Of a stretch of 64,000 nucleotides of DNA, positions 6,964-55,783 are shown in pieces. Made by a program: the position numbers and the translations under genes. The stretch lies in the sequence record PV435126.1. One strand, given 5' to 3'. Below the pieces are notes generated by a model. That model was not told the DNA's origin and did no database searches. It worked only from the letters and a program-made list of their open reading frames with translations. Source of the stretch: Escherichia phage EPFV3-03/2025. Each line of letters starts with the position of its first letter. Position 1 is the first letter of the stretch.

Positions 6964-7236
6964 GTGTCAAGCTGGATTAACCAAGAAGTCGAATCACGTT
7001 TTAATGCTATTTGGGATCTCATCGAAAAAGAGGACGGAACATCAAGCCCCTACCTTAATAATCTTGAATTCCATTTTGTGGAAGCGATGAACGCAGAACA
7101 TGATCACGAAGGCGGCGCGGATGAGTTCGCTAAAGGGTATGGCTTCACCAATGCCAACGAAATGATCGAGGCGGTTGTACTCCAGGCTGAGGAAGATTAT
7201 CAATTAAAAACACTTGAATTTTGCCGCCGTAAGTAA
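6964..7236 (+). CDS. hypothetical acidic protein (90 aa)
   Basis: GTG start with GAGAGGAAAAC RBS. Confidence 0.5.
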   Translation: MSSWINQEVESRFNAIWDLIEKEDGTSSPYLNNLEFHFVEAMNAEHDHEGGADEFAKGYGFTNANEMIEAVVLQAEEDYQLKTLEFCRRK

Positions 7237-7297
7237 TAAGATAATGACACGGGCCAAAAGGCCCACCAAACCAGAACCCCATAAAGAGGTAAACATC

Positions 7298-7561
7298 ATG
7301 AAACGTCTTGATCAGCTCAAACTAGTTCAGTACATGGCCTACAAAGTTCTTGAAGTCCAAAAAGGTAGCAAAAAAGAGGTTTGCGAGAAAGCATATAAGA
7401 TCTTTACCCGTAAAAAAGATGATTGGATGTTACGCCAGACCAAAAAGGCTGACATCTTGGGGTACCTGGAAGAAGAGATCCGGCTTGAAGAGCAAGAAGA
7501 GATCCGCCGCAGTGAGGCAGATTATCAGGCAGCTTGGGAAAGCTGGATGAGCAACAAATAA
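7298..7561 (+). CDS. hypothetical protein (87 aa)
   Basis: Internal ATG 7298 with AAAGAGGTAAACATCATG RBS. Confidence 0.5.
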   Translation: MKRLDQLKLVQYMAYKVLEVQKGSKKEVCEKAYKIFTRKKDDWMLRQTKKADILGYLEEEIRLEEQEEIRRSEADYQAAWESWMSNK

Positions 7562-7628
7562 TACAACAAGTTACGGTCAGGGGGGGCAATAAAGCCCCTT
7601 GATCACATAAAAATTATGCTATCCCTGG

Positions 7629-7657
7629 TTGACAGGGATCGGCAGTTTTGCTATATT
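7629..7657 (+). promoter_or_regulatory. sigma70-like promoter
   Basis: TTGACA, 17-nt spacer, TATATT. Confidence 0.6.
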
Positions 7658-7706
7658 CTTTTTTGAAGGGAAGTTGTAAGAAAATTAACTAAGAGGTAAA
7701 AACACC

Positions 7707-8126
7707 ATGAACATTAAATCTAATAATCCGGCATATAGCTTTGATAACGCTTTTTGTCACGGTCCGGCGGCGAAAGGATTCGAAATCGATGGTAAACTAA
7801 TTATTGTCAATGTTGACGGGGAAGAGGTTGCAGTATATCCGGTGGCAGACGTTAAAAGCCGTCTACAATGCCGCATGGATGTTACCGCCTATCAGCTTGA
7901 TCCGGTCCGCATAGTTGCCCTGGTCCTGGAAGAAGAAATTAAAGCAATGCACCACAGCAACAAGTTTATTGGTGACGCTCAAGATAATATGAAGGTATGC
8001 CGCCATAAAGTTAATGAAGTGCTTAAAGAATATGGCTTTAAAGATCTGATGATCAAACGTGAGGAAAAATTCCGCTACCGTAACGACCTGGCAAATCGGA
8101 TTTTTGAAATATACGAATCATTATAA
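7707..8126 (+). CDS. hypothetical protein (139 aa)
   Basis: ORF with TAAGAGGTAAAAACACCATG RBS; last gene of + strand block. Confidence 0.6.
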   Translation: MNIKSNNPAYSFDNAFCHGPAAKGFEIDGKLIIVNVDGEEVAVYPVADVKSRLQCRMDVTAYQLDPVRIVALVLEEEIKAMHHSNKFIGDAQDNMKVCRHKVNEVLKEYGFKDLMIKREEKFRYRNDLANRIFEIYESL

Positions 8127-8145
8127 TTTTTTAACTGAATTATCA

Positions 8146-8170
8146 AGGGGCTTAGGCCCCTTTCTTTTTG
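8146..8170 (+). terminator. intrinsic terminator
   Basis: AGGGGC-ttag-GCCCCT stem-loop followed by TTCTTTTTG. Confidence 0.7.
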
Positions 8171-8779
8171 TCTGCTCTTCCCCATACCATAAACGGCCCT
8201 ACCTGACAAGTGGAATAATTGACGAGCCATCAATCCCGCACACTGTACAAATATACATGTAAAATAGCTATTGCATAACCTTTCATTGTGTGGTAGCGGT
8301 GCTATTTTTACCCGTTTTCTCTCCCAAAATTGCACGTAATGCAGCTATTGCACAAAATTTAACCTGATGCACATCTTCAGTATACTGTCAACAATTAAAA
8401 ATCTTTATAAGTCATACACTTACACAAACCAAAAAGCGTGTCCTACGTGAAAAATCGGGTGTAACTATAGCCGACAGATCTCAGAATCCACGTACAATCA
8501 CCATTCTATAGCCTGCAAAGTATTTATTCCAACCACAGAATAACGGAATAGTCAATACTTGTATAAAATAATTATTCGTGTAAACTGCATAACATAAATC
8601 TTCTCATGTGTCAACATTTTTCGTAAACAGTCCGAAATTGTCACGATAGGTTACTATAATCAGAGAAATCTTTAGTCGTCTAATGTTTACTGTACATAAC
8701 TATACTGACTGGAATCATTAGATGACTAAGAGAAAGATAAGAAATAATTAACAATGTAATTGTTTTATCTGCAACAATA

Positions 8780-9040
8780 AGGCAACTATGCAAACGAATG
8801 GCATGGCGCGACGGAGTCGCGACATAATATAAAAGCAGTAACCATCACCCCCGTGATAGTTTGTCTGCAATCTATTAATCAGATCATAGTTGCCTTGTAT
8901 TTAGTTAATCATGACATAACAAGCAGGGCAACTATAGATCTTCTAATAGTTGCCCTGCTTTTATATTATGTCATATATTATTAACTTGTCAATTGTCACC
9001 TTGCTAATTGTTTTCATGCAAACGAATGTCATGGCTTATC
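8780..9040. repeat. cluster of inverted and direct repeats (GCAACTAT/ATAGTTGC units; GCAAACGAATGNCATGGC x2)
   Basis: 16-bp inverted repeat AAGCAGGGCAACTATA...AATAGTTGCCCTGCTT at 8921-8960; further copies at about 8782 and 8886. Confidence 0.7.
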
Positions 9041-9869
9041 ATCTCTGTGTAAACTGTCAATGTGTAAACAGTCTACGCAGGAACAATCTATACGTGAACA
9101 GTGAAACATGAAATAATAACAGTCGTTATTGTGTCGAAAGTGTCGTATTGTGTGACATTGTGTCAGACAAGTTTTTCTCCTCTTTGTCAAGTGCTGCATG
9201 GAAAATTTACAATCTGGTATGGTAGCATTTTTGCGGCCCCGTTTACATGCATGAGTGTATGTATAATCCTTGTTGTGTGGGCGTTTAGACGTCTGGACGG
9301 TCAGAAGTCCGCAGGTTAATATCTAATCTATTGGTCGCTAACTATATCCACCACAAATAATAAGAAATACAATTGTTATATTCGTAAACAGTAACCCATG
9401 TTATCAATCCCTGTATGTATCGCCAGTGGTGCGCATAATGGGTATTATGTTAAATTGCCCGTAATGATAACGATTCTCACAATGATAAGTATTCTCATTC
9501 ATCCACACAAAATAGCTTGCAAATGTTGTGCCACTGTGTGAACGGCCTCGCCTATTAATTTGCCTCACTGCCCCGATATTTGAGAATTGTTATAAGAATG
9601 AGAAGTATTCCCATTCCGTCCGCCTGGCAGCACTCCAGTCGCTACCGGCTCCTGACAGGGTAGCACTCCTGTAGGACAAGCACAAAATCTGGGCATAACT
9701 GGACCTGTTCAGATATTTCTGGCTGACTCTTCAGGTCTGTGTGGGAAAAGCCAACCTCTCCGGCGGGGCAGGGGGGGTCTGCATGGCAGATTTCACCTGG
9801 AGCGAAACCCTTAAGGGTAAGATGGGGTGGTATTACAGGAAAAATTGCAGGTCAATTAAAAAATTTACG

Positions 9870-10230
9870 TGGTGTATGAAGCCCTCTTCAGGCAGGGCGT
9901 GTATTATGGGATGAAACCCTCTTCAGGTGATGATATTTGTGGGTGTGATATTTGCTGGAAAGCCAGATATGACGGGGCTCCCGGCGGGGATGGGGTAGTA
10001 CAGGCAGGGAAAATGTGGGGATGTGGTGTGGTAAATTGATCAGGCAGGTAGGATATGGAATATGTTACAAGTATGTTAAATATGGAGGTAGGATATTTGT
10101 AAGATTTGTGTGTAAAATCAAATACTTATGTGGTGTTGTGGTATTTTCTATAAATAATTCAAGTTTAATAGGTGATATTTGTCTCCATCTACTTTGTGTG
10201 GTAAACAGATTCTAATTGAATTGGTTTACA
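9870..10230. repeat. GT-rich short direct repeat region
   Basis: Repeated GAWRCCCTCTTCAGG (x2), TGATATTTG (x3-4), GGTAGGATAT (x2); strand-asymmetric G+T composition. Confidence 0.6.
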
Positions 10231-10691
10231 AGTGTATATAAAGTATACAAATTAAAGATATAAGAAACCCCCCTCCCCCCTTCGGCTACCATTCACCTTT
10301 TCCTCTGACTGGTACTTAAACACTTATTCAGACTCTTCAGGTTATCACCCATATATCATATGGCAGTGACTGGTGTCCTCCGGCCCCTCTTTCGTCACCC
10401 GTCCGCTTCGCCATGCTAATGCCATAGCTAACTGTTCGGTTGTTCACCCTGTTCACTCAGGTGTATCTCCATACCCCTTCAAACCGAAGAGAACAGAAAA
10501 CCCGAATTACTCGGTAAAAGAAAAGAGAAGAACTTAATTTTATCAGGATAGGCAAGAATGTCAAGGCATGACTGCTCACTAAACAAGCAAACAGTCATGT
10601 GTGGGAGGTAAGTGATTGTGGTGGTAGGAAATTTAGTTGAAAGATGTGTTATAGGTGCTTCCAGCACTTTAGCCTGGCAGCTAATTGTGTG

Positions 10692-10907
10692 TCAGTCCAG
10701 CGGTTCATCCTCTACTTCACTGAAATCAATGTTCATGGTCTCTTCCCAACCATCGATCTCAGCACAAGAGTGGAGTTCTTTAGGGTTTACTCCCAAAGCC
10801 TCAGCAACAGAGTCTATATTTAACACCTCTGGCAGGTATGATTCATCGAATTCAAGGTAAATCAGGCCACGAGTGTTGTCAGCTCCACCAAATATTTCTA
10901 TCTTCAT
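10692..10907 (-). CDS. hypothetical acidic protein (71 aa)
   Basis: ORF, MKIEIF start; last gene of - strand block. Confidence 0.5.
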   Translation of the reverse strand: MKIEIFGGADNTRGLIYLEFDESYLPEVLNIDSVAEALGVNPKELHSCAEIDGWEETMNIDFSEVEDEPLD

Positions 10908-11027
10908 AAAATCTCCTCTGGGAATGAGAGTGTGAACAGGATTATACGTTCCAATGCACTGGAATTTATATACGTTTGCCTCTTCAGGCCATGCTTTAGC
11001 ATGATAAACTTGTGTGGGCTCGGTGCT

Positions 11028-11363
11028 TCATAGTCTGCCACCTCTGAACTCTTCGTTCTCAGGCATGATAGAGAACCAGATGGCTATGATGTCCTCCCAC
11101 GTCAGGTCATCAGCCTCAGGGTCCACCTGGGACGGAGATAGAGAATCCTCAGAATTGAAGTTTTTCTCTGCGGTCGCTTCTTCAGATGTCTCTTTAGGTG
11201 CATGTGTGTTGGTCATGTTCCACCCGTGAGTATTCCGGCAACAGCCGCTATGGACGTAATGATCATCAGGATCACCACCAAAACCTCGGACAATGTTTTC
11301 ATTGCGTATTCCATATTCTTCAAACGATGTGAGGATACTATCACAGGAGCTGTAATGTGTCAA
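11028..11363 (-). CDS. hypothetical acidic protein
   Basis: ORF; true start may be internal. Confidence 0.4.
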   Translation of the reverse strand: MTHYSSCDSILTSFEEYGIRNENIVRGFGGDPDDHYVHSGCCRNTHGWNMTNTHAPKETSEEATAEKNFNSEDSLSPSQVDPEADDLTWEDIIAIWFSIMPENEEFRGGRL

Positions 11364-11575
11364 CAGAAACGCCGCGAGGGTTGGTTAAAATCCGAGCGTA
11401 TGGTGATTTGGGTCAAAACGGACGTGCGTTCTCGCTACGCTCGAAATAGAGAGTTGTTTGTAAGCAGCTCTTAAACGCTCTGTAATGATATTAACTACCT
11501 AAGGTATGGAATCGTGCACCAGATAAAGAAAAGGACGCCACAGAGCGTCCTAGGTGCCTTAAATTTGATATTTTG

Positions 11576-11875
11576 CTATACCCATGAGGGCTTGTCTAGG
11601 TTGGAGTAGCTGAAGGGGGTCAAAAGGTGACTGTCAAAATCTTTCAAACTGTCCAAGTCTTTTTCCTCGTCCTGACACCATCTGTGCCTGCATTTATTGT
11701 TGTAGTGCATGGAATGCATAGCGTTCTGCAACTTAACAGGTACAAGTGATTCAGGAGTAGATAGAATTGTTGGGTATGCCAGGACTATCTCAAACAATGG
11801 AAACACATCGAAACTGAAGTCTATTTCTGCTGAGGTTGCTGGCATATAGGAGTATTTAGCTGTCGTTGTAGACAT
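11576..11875 (-). CDS. hypothetical protein (99 aa)
   Basis: ATG at 11875 with GAGGTGG RBS, 8 nt after upstream stop. Confidence 0.5.
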   Translation of the reverse strand: MSTTTAKYSYMPATSAEIDFSFDVFPLFEIVLAYPTILSTPESLVPVKLQNAMHSMHYNNKCRHRWCQDEEKDLDSLKDFDSHLLTPFSYSNLDKPSWV

Positions 11876-11883
11876 AATCCACC

Positions 11884-12210
11884 TCACACAGGCTTGATAA
11901 TACCTTCACCGAATAACTCTTCATATTTAATCTTATCAGGATCCCACTCCTGGATAATTTCGAAGACAATATCCAGCCCAGGGATAATCACTTCTCCGGT
12001 ATCAAGTCTGGCAAGAACAAAACCGGAAGGTTGAATGGTTTCCCAGTTGCGACGATTAGAATAGATAACTTCGAAAATATCGCCAACCGCAATCTGTTGA
12101 TCAAGGTGTTCAAGATTCTCTTTCATATAAACGCAGCGTATTTTCCGTGCAGGCCACAGGCCCCCTGCATCACGTTTATTTAGCTCTTTTACAGTAATCG
12201 GCATTAGCAT
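11884..12210 (-). CDS. hypothetical protein (108 aa)
   Basis: ORF in coupled array. Confidence 0.5.
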   Translation of the reverse strand: MLMPITVKELNKRDAGGLWPARKIRCVYMKENLEHLDQQIAVGDIFEVIYSNRRNWETIQPSGFVLARLDTGEVIIPGLDIVFEIIQEWDPDKIKYEELFGEGIIKPV

Positions 12211-52788: not shown

Positions 52789-52887
52789 GCTAGGTAAGCC
52801 CTTTGGCAAGGGCGAGGATTTTTAATCCTGAAAATAGACGAGGTAGTCGTTGAATACATAGGTGGTTCGATTCCATCACCTAGCACC
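52789..52887 (+). tRNA. atypical tRNA-like gene (possible anticodon TTT) with about 30-nt insertion before T-arm
   Basis: Perfect 7-bp acceptor GCTAGGT/ACCTAGC, D-arm GCCC-TTTGGCAA-GGGC, T-arm GGTGG-TTCGATT-CCATC, but 4-bp anticodon stem and over-long variable region; CCA not fully encoded. Confidence 0.45.
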
Positions 52888-53952: not shown

Positions 53953-54236
53953 GAGCCACCGTATTATTAGTTGCTTGCTTGCTGCTGTGCGGGTGTGCGA
54001 CAAGTGTCGAAAAAGAATACAAGATTGACCCTCCGGATGTAGGAAGGTTGATTGTTAAACCTCCCGAGGGTGCTATGAAACCACCTGCTAAAGCTATCCC
54101 TTTGAAGAAAGGTGCGCCAGATGCGGTGAATTCTGGCATTATGAGGGATAATAACCTGTCTTGTAGTAATGATAGAGCTAAATTGATCATTTTGCAAGAC
54201 TATATAAGAACACTGTTTCCAAAGGAGAGAGGTTAA
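53949..54236 (+). CDS. o-spanin (Rz1-like outer-membrane lipoprotein)
   Basis: Signal peptide with lipobox-like LLLCGCA; Pro-rich mature part; ATG overlaps i-spanin stop. Confidence 0.65.
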   Translation: MRATVLLVACLLLCGCATSVEKEYKIDPPDVGRLIVKPPEGAMKPPAKAIPLKKGAPDAVNSGIMRDNNLSCSNDRAKLIILQDYIRTLFPKERG

Positions 54237-55783
54237 TGTCTAAGATTTACGGACCGTGTTCTGAAAAGCAGAAGATGATCCTTGAGAACGATGCAGATAT
54301 TTTGGTGATCGGAGGTGCAGCAGGTTCTGGCAAGTCGTTCCTCTTGCAGCTAATGCCACTTAAAATTATTGATGACCCACACAGCTCTGTGGTTATGTTC
54401 CGAAGAACAACTCCACAGTTGGAAGGTGAGGGTGGGCTATGGCCTAAAGCAGTAGCTATTTACAGTGATCTGCCTGAAAACATTAAACCAAAGTTCAGAG
54501 AGAAGGATCATAAGTTTATTTTTCCACGGTTTGATCCGAGCACTGGCAAGTGGGACAGGAGCAAAAAAGGGGCCGTTGTAAAATACTGCCACATGGAGTA
54601 TGTCCAAGATAAGCTTAACCATCAAGGCCTTGAGTACACCATGGTTTGCTTCGATGAAGGCACGCAATTCGAATGGGAGCAGATAGACTATTTGATGTCT
54701 CGTCTGCGATCTCAGTCAAAGTATCCATCAAGAATGGTTATCAGTTGTAACCCCGACTCAGAACACATGCTTGCCAAACTGGTTAGGTGGTGGTTGGACG
54801 ATGAAGGGTATCCAGATCCGGAGAAATGTGGTAAGAAAAGATATTTTATCCGACGCGACGGTGAGTTTATCTGGGGAGACTCTAAAGAGGAGTTAATAGA
54901 GAAATACACCACGGTTAACGGACTGGGTGTGGAGATCAAGCCAAGACCGTTGTCATTCTCGTTTATAGGTGCAACAATTTTCGATAATCCTGTCTGCTTG
55001 AGAGACAACCCAGAATACCTTGCTTTCCTTGAAGGTCTACCAGAGCTTGAAAAAGCCCAGCTTCTTCATGGCAACTGGTTTGCCAAACCTGAGGGTGCAA
55101 ACTATTTCCAAAGATCTTTCCTTCGTGATGCCGATAGAGTACCTCTTGGATCAGTATCTTGCAGGGCATGGGATAAGGCAGGAACCGAGAGAACTTCCGG
55201 TAATAAATTTCCTGACTTTACTGCCAGTGTTAAGGTAAGTAAAGATAGCGACGGTTTTTATTACCTGTCCGGGGATTATTGTCCTGAGAACGTGGATGAC
55301 GGTAGGTATTCCACAGGTCTGGAAGGTAAGTTCTGTAAAAAGGCTGGGGAACGAGATGTGATCATCAGGAAACAGGCGCAGTTTGATGGAGATGATTGCA
55401 TAATCGTATTTTCTGTGGACCCCGGTCAGGCAGGTAAGAGTGAGTTCTTAACCTCGTCCAGATCCTTGCTCGCCGAAGGGTTCAGGGTTGAAGAAGATCC
55501 GATGCCTTCCAACAAATCTAAACTGACAAGGTTCTCACCTTTTGCCAATCTTGCCCAACAAGGAATGGTGAGGATTGTAAAATCCAGTTTCCATCCTGAC
55601 ACTCTGGAAGCATTTCTGACTGAACTTGAAAAGTTCAACGGGGAAAGATCAACATTTAACAGAAAAGACGACTGGGCCGACTGTGTAGCTTCTGCGATTA
55701 ATTTCTTGGAGAAAGAGGAGGTAGCACTGCCTTGTGTGATTCCATCAATCTCATCACCTTCTATGTTCAAGCGTTTTATCTAA
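54236..55783 (+). CDS. terL: terminase large subunit
   Basis: 515 aa; Walker A ILVIGGAAGSGKSF, Walker B-like MVCFDEGTQ; directly upstream of portal-sized gene. Confidence 0.85.
   Translation: MSKIYGPCSEKQKMILENDADILVIGGAAGSGKSFLLQLMPLKIIDDPHSSVVMFRRTTPQLEGEGGLWPKAVAIYSDLPENIKPKFREKDHKFIFPRFDPSTGKWDRSKKGAVVKYCHMEYVQDKLNHQGLEYTMVCFDEGTQFEWEQIDYLMSRLRSQSKYPSRMVISCNPDSEHMLAKLVRWWLDDEGYPDPEKCGKKRYFIRRDGEFIWGDSKEELIEKYTTVNGLGVEIKPRPLSFSFIGATIFDNPVCLRDNPEYLAFLEGLPELEKAQLLHGNWFAKPEGANYFQRSFLRDADRVPLGSVSCRAWDKAGTERTSGNKFPDFTASVKVSKDSDGFYYLSGDYCPENVDDGRYSTGLEGKFCKKAGERDVIIRKQAQFDGDDCIIVFSVDPGQAGKSEFLTSSRSLLAEGFRVEEDPMPSNKSKLTRFSPFANLAQQGMVRIVKSSFHPDTLEAFLTELEKFNGERSTFNRKDDWADCVASAINFLEKEEVALPCVIPSISSPSMFKRFI

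What the first reader, a model, noticed from the sequence alone, without database searches (positions are those of the whole stretch)
8171..10690. 2.5-kb ORF-poor, repeat-dense divergent region between early and middle blocks
The + strand early block ends at a terminator at 8170 and the - strand block ends near 10692. In between are an AT-rich stretch (8280-8700), a cluster built from GCAACTAT/ATAGTTGC units including a 16-bp inverted repeat at 8921-8960 and two copies of GCAAACGAATGNCATGGC, a strongly GT-skewed stretch of short direct repeats (9870-10230), and a C-tract AAACCCCCCTCCCCCC at about 10265. Such architecture fits a replication origin, packaging site or control hub; the two track ORFs here have no RBS.
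Basis: seen in the sequence. Interest (0 to 1): 0.6.

Follow-up and report, generated by a model that had tools for sequence, protein, structure and literature searches.

The report
Genome-end (terminal repeat) region of rV5-like phage
This gene-free 2.5-kb stretch is the place where the linear DNA of an rV5-like (Vequintavirus) E. coli phage begins and ends: its middle 459 bases are the repeat present at both ends of the packaged genome, which was already known for this phage genus, though the conserved motifs around it have not been explained.

Summary
Window 8171-10690 is the most repeat-dense and most ORF-poor 2.5 kb of the 64-kb window. The flanking genes converge on it; they do not diverge.

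The window is a Vequintavirus (rV5-like myovirus). In rV5 the same stretch was published as a "non-coding" box.

Window 9166-9624 aligns without gaps to the 459-bp direct terminal repeat (DTR) found at both ends of the Gotham and HdK5 GenBank records. Korf 2019 reported 458-bp terminal redundancies from reads that ended abruptly. A third record is linearised exactly at 9624|9625. The independently mapped 514-bp DTR of Klebsiella phage KPP-1, a sister genus, aligns to the same two boundaries within 0-1 nt.

So this is the genome-end (concatemer-junction) region: a DTR flanked by two non-coding arms. This is already known. "Origin" and "control hub" remain untested.

Undescribed details:
- Hypervariable short-repeat arrays lie just outside both cut sites.
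- A 253-nt block is at least 97.6% identical in 117 genomes and sits behind a consensus orphan promoter.
- An invariant inverted-repeat cluster lies at 8777-8975.
- Fur-box-like palindromes are present.
- Sister genera carry a covariation-supported four-way-junction element beside the DTR.

Interest is modest.

The parts
8145..8170 (+). Intrinsic terminator that ends the + strand gene block.
   Evidence: Hairpin AAGGGGCTTAGGCCCCTT plus a T-tract. Relatives annotate it as a terminator.
8171..9165 (.). Non-coding arm that precedes the right-end DTR copy in the virion, in window orientation.
   Evidence: There is no consistent ORF. The arm is conserved at 85-100% in 13 relatives.
8777..8975 (.). 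Invariant inverted-repeat/iteron cluster. It holds GGCAACTAT four times, an 18-nt perfect inverted repeat at 8821-8838/8955-8972, and a 15-nt inverted repeat at 8921-8935/8946-8960.
   Evidence: define the repeats. Identity is 95-100% in 13 relatives. The fold z-score is -8.7 on the + strand and -9.2 on the - strand. It is the only part of the region with a strong fold signal.
8965..8992 (-). Promoter-like site TTGACA-16-(TG)CATAAT. It points away from the DTR into the inverted-repeat cluster.
   Evidence: It matches 11 of 12 consensus positions. The -35 element is not conserved in relatives; only TGACATAAT is.
9040..9165 (.). Hypervariable array of short repeats that abuts the left cut site. 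The units are GTRAACAGT and (T/G)TGTC, the latter every 9-10 bp.
   Evidence: Copy number and sequence differ between relatives, with indels of 17-62 alignment columns.
9166..9624 (.). Direct terminal repeat (459 bp). The boundaries are ...TTGTGTCA|GACAAGTTTTTC and ...CATTCCGTCCGCC|TGGCAGCAC.
   Evidence: It aligns without gaps, at 94.1% identity, to the annotated Gotham DTR. HdK5 has exact 459-bp identical record ends at the same positions, and bov11CS3 is linearised at 9624|9625. Korf 2019 reports 458-bp terminal redundancies. The KPP-1 DTR aligns to both boundaries.
9184..9213 (+). Promoter-like site TTGTCA-18-TACAAT, 18-47 nt from the physical end. Its hexamers lie in blocks conserved across genera.
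   Evidence: The site was found. Conservation of CTTGACAAG and TTGTAAATTT in KPP-1 and PVP-SE1 is shown.
9401..9460 (.). Most conserved core of the DTR. It includes the promoter-like site TCGCCA-17-TATTAT at 9420-9448.
   Evidence: Identity is 99% within the genus. It is detectably homologous in KPP-1 (75% over 53 nt, E 3e-4) and in PVP-SE1 (86% over 35 nt).
9465..9497 (.). Two tandem 15-nt pseudo-palindromes 18 nt apart, TGATAACGATTCTCA and TGATAAGTATTCTCA. They resemble the Fur 7-1-7 box.
   Evidence: Some relatives annotate this stretch as 'repeat_region'.
9581..9613 (.). Second pair of the same box type, TGAGAATTGTTATAA and TGAGAAGTATTCCCA, next to the right cut site.
9625..9700 (.). Variable 33-nt repeat units (GGCAGCACTCCAGT...) that abut the right cut site.
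   Evidence: Relatives carry zero to three copies, and indels occur at 9633 and 9661.
9721..10341 (-). Four copies of CCTGAAGAG, all on the - strand (+ strand coordinates 9727-9735, 9884-9892, 9919-9927, 10333-10341).
   Evidence: The same motif, in the same relative orientation, forms the loop of terminator-type hairpins in KPP-1, PVP-SE1, GAP31 and 4MG.
9870..10230 (.). G/T-skewed short-repeat stretch. On the - strand the RNA would be C-rich, G-poor and nearly unstructured, like a Rho utilisation (rut) site.
   Evidence: Composition is given, motifs. The - strand folds at only -0.4 to -4.4 kcal/mol per 100 nt at 10000-10125.
10265..10280 (+). C6-T-C6 tract.
   Evidence: The homopolymer length varies between C5 and C7 among relatives.
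10283..10535 (-). Invariant 253-nt block downstream of the orphan promoter.
   Evidence: All 117 Vequintavirus records that match it are 97.6-100% identical with essentially no length variation, whereas the whole region is 86-95% identical. It has no unusual fold, no Rfam match and no E. coli homolog. It is not detectable in KPP-1 or PVP-SE1.
10537..10564 (-). Near-consensus sigma-70 promoter TTGACA-16-(TG)TAAAAT with no gene behind it. It points toward the DTR.
   Evidence: It matches 11 of 12 consensus positions, the same quality as this phage's gene promoters. It is invariant in 12 of 13 relatives.
10692..10907 (-). Last gene of the converging - strand block (71 aa, PHROG 12108, function unknown).
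   Evidence: It is annotated in all relatives examined.

Best explanation
The region is the genome-end, or concatemer-junction, region of a Vequintavirus (rV5-like myovirus). Its centre, window 9166-9624, is the 459-bp sequence carried at both ends of the packaged linear DNA as a direct terminal repeat.

Inferred mechanism: in replicating concatemers one copy of the repeat lies between the two non-coding arms. Terminase cuts sequence-specifically at 9165|9166 and 9624|9625. The repeat is then duplicated so that every virion receives a copy at each end. This follows the T7/T3 model and was not tested here.

Shown here: both flanking transcription units run toward the ends and stop short of them. 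The + strand block stops at an intrinsic terminator. The - strand block runs into a series of small hairpins with CUGAAGAG loops and a C-rich, unstructured stretch that looks like a Rho-loading site; that role is inferred.

The arms carry short repeats that abut the two cut sites. They also carry an invariant inverted-repeat/iteron cluster and an invariant block behind an orphan promoter. These are the candidates for terminase recognition, for priming of repeat duplication or replication, and for end-proximal transcription. Which element does which job is not known.
For: - Identity of the phage: 121 phage records match at 86-95% identity, and the named organisms are Vequintavirus.
- In rV5 the homologous stretch lies between gp158 and gp159. 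It was published as a 'non-coding' box between converging transcription units.
- Gotham annotates a 459-bp repeat at both record ends. That repeat aligns without gaps to window 9166-9624.
- HdK5 has exact 459-bp identical ends at the same positions. Its authors linearised genomes where most reads ended abruptly, and they report 458-bp terminal redundancies.
- bov11CS3 (.2) is linearised exactly at 9624|9625. ECP2309, YN3 and Pr121LW break at 9166.
- Sister genus: the KPP-1 514-bp DTR, called from two-fold coverage and PhageTerm, lies in the same convergent gene-poor zone. It aligns to both boundaries with offsets of 0 and 1 nt.
- Klebsiella phage DP annotates the same 514-bp repeat, and the KP12 record starts at that point.
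- PVP-SE1 has a 2.27-kb ORF-free convergent gap with the same boundary motifs.
- Sequence conservation changes sharply at both boundaries. The DTR is conserved, while hypervariable repeat arrays lie just outside it.
Against: - No raw reads or virion DNA of this particular phage could be examined, so the ends are inferred from relatives that are 86-95% identical.
- Two papers on Vequintavirus isolates report PhageTerm calls of 'circular permutated' and 'headful (PAC-type)' packaging.
- The window holds only one copy of the repeat. That is expected for a collapsed assembly but is not in itself proof.
- The T7-like duplication step and the role of each motif rest on analogy only.
Confidence: 0.85

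Rival explanations
1. The region, especially the AT-rich stretch 8500-8800 together with the invariant inverted-repeat/iteron cluster 8777-8975, is the origin of replication. A phage initiator would bind the GGCAACTAT repeats and melt the adjacent AT-rich DNA. This could coexist with the terminal repeat.
For: - GC content is 30.6% at 8500-8800.
- Four GGCAACTAT copies in inverted pairs are invariant in 13 relatives.
- GYAACTAT motifs recur in the terminus zones of sister genera.
- The rV5 authors could not locate an origin by skew analysis.
Against: - No conserved DnaA boxes: the two near-matches seen by eye vary among relatives.
- GC-skew changes here coincide with changes in transcription direction.
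- No replication data exist for this region.
- The cross-genus enrichment of GYAACTAT is modest.
Confidence: 0.2
2. The region is a non-coding transcription and regulation hub. Orphan sigma-70 promoters would make non-coding RNAs, one of them from the invariant block 10283-10535. The palindromic TGAKAA-N3-TTMTCA boxes would be operators for host Fur or for a phage repressor. This could also coexist with the terminal repeat.
For: - Two promoters matching 11 of 12 consensus positions have no gene behind them; the same quality is seen at this phage's gene promoters.
- The promoter at 10564-10537 and the 253 nt behind it are essentially invariant in 117 genomes.
- Fur 7-1-7-like boxes are enriched in the non-coding terminus zone of five phages in three genera. 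Counts at two or fewer mismatches are 2, 5, 5, 2 and 2, against about 0.03 expected in local shuffles.
Against: - There is no Rfam match and no unusual fold for the invariant block.
- The -35 element of the 8992 promoter is not conserved.
- The classical 19-mer Fur consensus is not enriched.
- The best Fur-like box of the sister genera is a stem (P3) of a covarying structure. It drifts away from the Fur consensus through compensatory changes, and in phage Mydo a 53-nt insertion splits it.
- No transcriptome data were found.
Confidence: 0.3
3. The region holds a pac site for headful packaging. The genome would be circularly permuted and terminally redundant, and the 459-bp 'repeat' in some records would be an assembly or linearisation convention.
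For: PhageTerm calls of 'circular permutated' for bovine Vequintavirus isolates and of 'headful (PAC-type)' packaging for BpE1AUH.
Against: - Independent groups place their record ends at identical nucleotides.
- Long reads ended abruptly there.
- The bovine record was later re-linearised exactly at the boundary.
- In KPP-1, two-fold coverage is confined to the 514-bp DTR.
- The boundaries are homologous across genera.
Confidence: 0.08

Closest known systems
Short exact direct terminal repeats and concatemer-junction processing of T7/T3-type phages (recalled from memory: Dunn and Studier 1983; Chung, Nardone and Hinkle 1990; Fujisawa and Morita 1997)
   Same: - A fixed, sequence-specific repeat of a few hundred bp lies at both genome ends.
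- The arms beside the repeat are non-coding and built from short repeated sequences.
- A strongly self-complementary element sits in the arm that precedes the right-end repeat. This recalls the hairpin-forming inverted repeat proposed to prime repeat duplication in T7.
   Different: - The repeat is 459 bp here, against 160-230 bp in T7/T3.
- The phage is a 137-kb myovirus that uses host-type sigma-70 promoters.
- Both terminal gene blocks are transcribed outward toward the ends, rather than in one direction.
- Nothing here is known about terminase recognition or the duplication step.
514-bp DTR of Klebsiella phage KPP-1 and phage DP (Mydovirus, Vequintavirinae), and the ORF-free gap gp179/gp180 of Salmonella phage PVP-SE1
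   Same: - Same subfamily.
- The same convergent, gene-poor setting.
- Boundaries homologous within 0-1 nt, and a homologous DTR core.
- The CCTGAAGWG motif lies in the same arm and orientation.
- TGAKAA-N3-TTMTCA boxes are present.
   Different: - The arms are not alignable between genera.
- The Vequintavirus arm 9625-10690 is about 400-730 bp longer and contains the genus-specific invariant block.
- The four-way-junction element of the sister genera is not detectable here with a covariance model.
Arrays of short repeats beside terminase cleavage sites: P1 pac hexamers, lambda cosB R sites (from memory)
   Same: Several short phased repeats directly abut the cut site. Here (T/G)TGTC recurs every 9-10 bp up to 9165|9166.
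   Different: These arrays are hypervariable in copy number and sequence between close relatives. That is unexpected for an essential recognition site. Binding has not been tested.
E. coli Fur box, 7-1-7 reading TGATAATnATTATCA (Baichoo and Helmann, as summarised in PMC2189734)
   Same: The boxes have the same outer hexamers and spacing. Two boxes lie 18 nt apart, a multiple of 6. They are enriched in five phages.
   Different: - The window's boxes have 2-4 mismatches.
- The classical 19-mer is not enriched.
- One of the best boxes in the sister genera is demonstrably a base-paired stem that covaries away from the Fur consensus.

Membership tests
Phage genome end with short exact direct terminal repeat (T7-type ends) | The same sequence is present at both ends of the virion DNA. 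| tested here: met
   This was tested in relatives, not in this phage. Gotham and HdK5 have exact 459-bp identical record ends that map to window 9166-9624. Korf 2019 reports 458-bp terminal redundancies.
Phage genome end with short exact direct terminal repeat (T7-type ends) | The end positions are fixed, sequence-specific and conserved among relatives. | tested here: met
   Six or more records from different laboratories break at 9166 or 9624|9625. The boundary sequences are invariant in 14 genomes. The boundaries of the sister genus align within 0-1 nt.
Phage genome end with short exact direct terminal repeat (T7-type ends) | Two-fold read coverage over the repeat, and read-start pile-ups at both boundaries, for this phage. 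| not testable with these tools
   No raw reads were available. The literature is mixed: KPP-1 gives a DTR call, while two Vequintavirus papers report permuted or headful packaging.
Phage genome end with short exact direct terminal repeat (T7-type ends) | The large terminase subunit belongs to a clade that makes exact DTR ends. | not tested
   TerL is present at 54236-55783 (PHROG 979). No phylogeny was made.
Replication origin | An AT-rich unwinding element lies next to repeated initiator-binding sites. | tested here: inconclusive
   An AT-rich stretch (30.6% GC at 8500-8800) lies beside four invariant GGCAACTAT repeats. Neither the initiator nor its binding is known.
Replication origin | Host DnaA boxes or a strand-skew switch that is independent of transcription. 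| tested here: not met
   No conserved DnaA box was found by reading the alignments. The skew changes coincide with gene orientation.
Fur-regulated operator | Match to the Fur consensus beyond chance. | tested here: inconclusive
   The 7-1-7 form is enriched, but the 19-mer form is not. The best homologous box in sister genera is conserved for base pairing, not for the Fur consensus.
Fur-regulated operator | Fur binds, and expression depends on iron. | not testable with these tools
   This needs EMSA or ChIP and infection of a fur mutant.
Known RNA family (Rfam 15) | A covariance-model match. | tested here: not met
   There was no match at E <= 1 in window 7000-12000 or in the KPP-1, PVP-SE1 and Erwinia phage loci.
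Four-way-junction element beside the DTR of Mydovirus/Seunavirus/Henunavirus (defined here) | Match to covariance model R1, which describes stems P1, P1a, P2 and P3. | tested here: not met
   R1 finds all 11 sister-genus loci at 130-269 bits, but finds nothing in the window, rV5 or APCEc02 at E <= 1. Only position and strong self-complementarity are shared.

The most novel reading that the evidence does not exclude
The invariant inverted-repeat cluster at 8777-8975 may be the Vequintavirus counterpart of the structured element found beside the DTR in sister genera. That element is a perfect four-way junction supported by covariation. Together they would define a new class of folded single-strand element, RNA or snap-back DNA, that works at phage genome ends. 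Possible roles are priming duplication of the terminal repeat, acting as a packaging cofactor, or acting as an origin.

A separate possibility is that the 253-nt invariant block behind the orphan promoter is a genus-specific non-coding RNA needed for end processing.
Probability: 0.25. Interest if true: 0.7.

Novelty: already known. Interest (0 to 1): 0.3.

Why it matters
Knowing where the true ends lie matters in practice. Most of the 121 public Vequintavirus records are opened at arbitrary points and leave this stretch blank or filled with spurious small ORFs. Two papers also call the genus headful or permuted. Correct ends affect annotation, genome engineering and packaging models for a group that is widely proposed for therapy against E. 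coli O157 and other pathogens.

The biology of the arms is still open. The conserved cut-site sequences, the invariant block and the folded elements beside the repeat give defined targets for asking how a large myovirus makes exact terminal repeats. That question has been worked out in detail only for T7-like podoviruses.

Tried and rejected
- Known RNA families: Rfam found nothing.
- Small proteins: the gene calls in six relatives disagree with each other, use GTG starts without ribosome-binding sites, and are shifted by indels. The APCEc02_065 'structural protein' label has no mass-spectrometry basis in its paper.
- An sRNA from the 8992 promoter that ends at the 8861-8840 hairpin: the fold is strong. 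However, the -35 element is absent in 13 of 13 relatives, and most relatives have a mismatch in the 15-nt stem without compensation.
- Classical 19-mer Fur box: the matches are no better than chance hits elsewhere in the window.
- A Fur reading of the best boxes in sister genera: undermined by covariation and by a loop insertion.
- G6AG6 tract as an mtDNA CSBII-like primer-forming site: the tract varies in length, and the similar tracts in KPP-1 and PVP-SE1 are in the opposite orientation.
- Host origin of the invariant block: no E. coli match was found.
- Homology of the invariant block in other genera: none was found by blastn or nhmmer.
- TTGACA...TGCTCAAAA repeats of KPP-1 and PVP-SE1 as promoters: the scan does not call them, and their -10 element lacks the conserved A2 and T6.
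- Contig-end pile-ups as a proxy for termini: IMG/VR gave two contigs and the metagenome collection gave one, which is too few.
- A related-locus scan with the 71-aa flank protein returned only three loci.
- One literature search was wasted on loose terms.
Full report
**1. The observation**

- A terminator lies at 8145-8162 after the + strand ORF 7707-8126. The - strand ORF 10907->10692 ends at 10692.
- The AT-rich stretch reaches 30.6% GC at 8500-8800, against 42.8% for the window.
- GGCAACTAT occurs four times at 8781-8954, against once elsewhere in the window.
- A perfect 15-nt inverted repeat lies at 8921-8935/8946-8960. Two copies of ATGCAAACGAATGNCATGGC are present.
- The G/T-skewed stretch 9870-10230 is 29.4% G and 10.5% C.
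- The C6TC6 tract lies at 10265-10280.

The region is the most repeat-dense 2.5 kb of the window. It scores 100 repeated 9-mers, against a median of 48 and 37.8 +/- 6.9 in shuffles. It also has the shortest maximal stop-free run, 97 codons against a median of 261.

One correction is needed: the two flanking gene blocks converge on the region.

**2. What genome this is**

The stretch matches 121 phage records at 86-95% identity, and the named organisms are Vequintavirus (rV5-like myoviruses of about 137 kb). Almost none of these records annotates anything here.

In rV5 the region lies between gp158 and gp159. The rV5 paper draws it as a grey 'non-coding' box between transcription units that end there. 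The authors found no origin by skew analysis.

**3. The core finding: the genome ends lie here**

Several GenBank records are linearised inside the region.
- Gotham annotates a 459-bp repeat at both record ends. The two copies are identical and align without gaps to window 9166-9624 at 94.1% identity.
- HdK5 has exact 459-bp identical ends at the same positions. [quoted passage not shown]
- bov11CS3 (.2) is opened exactly at 9624|9625.

The boundaries read ...TTGTGTCA|GACAAGTTTTTC and ...CATTCCGTCCGCC|TGGCAGCAC. Both are invariant in 14 genomes.

**4. Cross-genus replication**

Klebsiella phage KPP-1 (Mydovirus) has a 514-bp DTR called from two-fold coverage and PhageTerm.
- It sits in the same convergent, gene-poor zone.
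- It aligns with the Vequintavirus DTR at both boundaries, with offsets of 0 and 1 nt.
- Phage DP annotates the same repeat, and the KP12 record starts there.

PVP-SE1 has a 2.27-kb ORF-free convergent gap with the same boundary motifs.

Parts of the DTR interior are detectably homologous between genera. These are window 9414-9465 and 9173-9212.

Against this, two papers report 'circular permutated' or 'headful' PhageTerm calls for Vequintavirus isolates. I weigh these below the nucleotide-exact agreement between laboratories, sequencing technologies and genera.

**5. Anatomy around the repeat**

I aligned 14 genomes. Conservation switches sharply at both boundaries.
- Just outside the left cut lies a hypervariable array of GTRAACAGT and (T/G)TGTC units. 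The latter recur every 9-10 bp.
- Just outside the right cut lie zero to three copies of a 33-nt unit.
- Window 9777-9850 is present only in this genome and in one metagenomic relative.

Three blocks are nearly invariant: 8801-8950, 9401-9450 and 10283-10650.
- The 253 nt at 10283-10535 are 97.6-100% identical in all 117 matching records, with essentially no length variation.
- Directly upstream, on the - strand, lies a promoter that matches 11 of 12 consensus positions. It is of the same quality as this phage's gene promoters but has no gene behind it.
- The block has no unusual fold, no Rfam match, no E. coli homolog and no counterpart in sister genera. Its function is unexplained.

**6. How the converging - strand transcription may end**

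CCTGAAGAG occurs four times on the - strand in this arm.
- In KPP-1, PVP-SE1, GAP31 and 4MG the same motif, in the same relative orientation, forms the loop of small hairpins whose stems differ.
- Some of those hairpins are clear terminators placed right after genes.

The G/T-skewed stretch would give a - strand RNA with about 29% C and 10% G. That RNA is almost unstructured, at -0.4 to -4.4 kcal/mol per 100 nt. This is the signature of a Rho-loading site, as an inference.

Together these features could keep transcription out of the repeat.

**7. Fur-like boxes, and a self-correction**

The DTR holds four pseudo-palindromes of the form TGAKAA-N3-TTMTCA.
- The Fur 7-1-7 form is enriched in the terminus zones of five phages in three genera. 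Counts at two or fewer mismatches are 2, 5, 5, 2 and 2, against about 0.03 expected.
- The classical 19-mer is not enriched.
- The best box in the sister genera turned out to be a stem of a folded element. It covaries away from the Fur consensus, and in phage Mydo a 53-nt insertion splits it.

Host Fur binding therefore remains only a lead.

**8. A folded element beside the repeat**

In Mydovirus, Seunavirus and Henunavirus, a 210-280-nt element lies 300-620 bp beyond one DTR boundary. It folds as a perfect four-way junction.
- Across 11 phages, 98.4% of cells are paired.
- 12 of 51 pairs show compensatory double changes, against 3.9 +/- 1.4 in shuffles (0 of 500 reach 12). Slid controls give 0-4.
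- A conserved U.G pair that becomes C-G in one phage hints at folding of one particular strand.
- The element is not in Rfam.

The window's invariant inverted-repeat cluster at 8777-8975 occupies the equivalent arm, at a similar distance from the boundary, and is strongly self-complementary (z = -8.7 and -9.2). The covariance model does not detect it, and it shows no variation on which to test pairing.

As I recall, T7 uses a hairpin-forming inverted repeat just inside the right terminal repeat as a proposed primer for duplicating the repeat. That is the most economical analogy, but it is untested.

**9. Verdict**

The finding is a real feature and is already explained at its core. It is the terminal-repeat region of the genus, published as a non-coding box in 2013 and as a 458-bp terminal redundancy in 2019.

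'Origin' and 'control hub' are neither shown nor excluded.

Still open are the roles of the cut-site arrays, the invariant block with its orphan promoter, and the folded elements.

Noticed in passing
L020 3639-3844 (KPP-1), L021 3266-3484 (PVP-SE1), L026 2573-2805, L027 2640-2874, L028 2075-2311, L029 1683-1896, L030 1654-1896, L031 1392-1627, L032 1728-2006, L033 1727-1950, L022 743-968: A structured element not found in Rfam or in my literature searches lies beside the DTR of Mydovirus, Seunavirus and Henunavirus phages. It is a perfect four-way junction: a P1 stem of 18-21 bp, a P1a hairpin, an invariant 13-bp P2 stem and a P3 hairpin. In 11 phages, 12 of 51 pairs show compensatory double changes. 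It has no Rfam match. Whether it folds as RNA or as single-stranded DNA is unknown.
   Followed up: yes
window 9465-9497, 9581-9613, 9002; L020 3216-3975; L021 2736-3850; L026 2230-2765; L027 2303-2979: Palindromes that resemble the Fur 7-1-7 box (TGATAATnATTATCA) are strongly enriched in the non-coding terminus zones of five phages from three genera. At least one of them is conserved for base pairing rather than as a Fur site.
   Followed up: partly
window 10283-10564: A 253-nt non-coding block is at least 97.6% identical in 117 Vequintavirus genomes. It lies behind an invariant consensus sigma-70 promoter that points toward the genome end. It has no ORF, no strong fold and no homolog outside the genus.
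   Followed up: partly
window 9293-9306: Inside the DTR there is a small stem, CTG-GACGGT-CAG. In four relatives the changes G->A at 9296 and CA->TG at 9303-9304 keep the pairing. Two other relatives carry only the first change. An AGACGTCT palindrome lies next to it, at 9287-9294.
   Followed up: no
window 7707-8126: The last + strand gene before the region (139 aa, PHROG 12277, function unknown) is absent from 8 of 13 aligned relatives, so it is an accessory gene.
   Followed up: partly
window 52789-52887: Within the cluster of seven tRNA genes, ARAGORN reports a 99-nt 'tRNA-???' with a four-base anticodon (atcc).
   Followed up: no
window 54236-55783: The large terminase ORF matches only positions 147-621 of its 642-position PHROG profile. 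Its N-terminal part must therefore be encoded separately. This fits the split, intron-containing terminase gene described for rV5.
   Followed up: no
GenBank MG0656xx records (hits H48, H50, H53, H66, H67, H71, H72, H74): Nineteen records named 'Campylobacter phage' are 86-89% identical to this E. coli Vequintavirus region. They are probably mislabelled or contaminating coliphage genomes.
   Followed up: no
Literature: PMC8407724, PMC13211470 versus PMC6563267 and GenBank MT682716, MK373780: Published packaging calls for Vequintavirus disagree. Some report permuted or headful packaging and others report a 458/459-bp exact terminal repeat. Most public records are opened at arbitrary positions, and several fill this region with spurious small ORFs.
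   Followed up: partly
window 9777-9850: A roughly 74-bp insertion in the right arm is shared only with one metagenomic relative (IMGVR_UViG_3300010279_000001).
   Followed up: no
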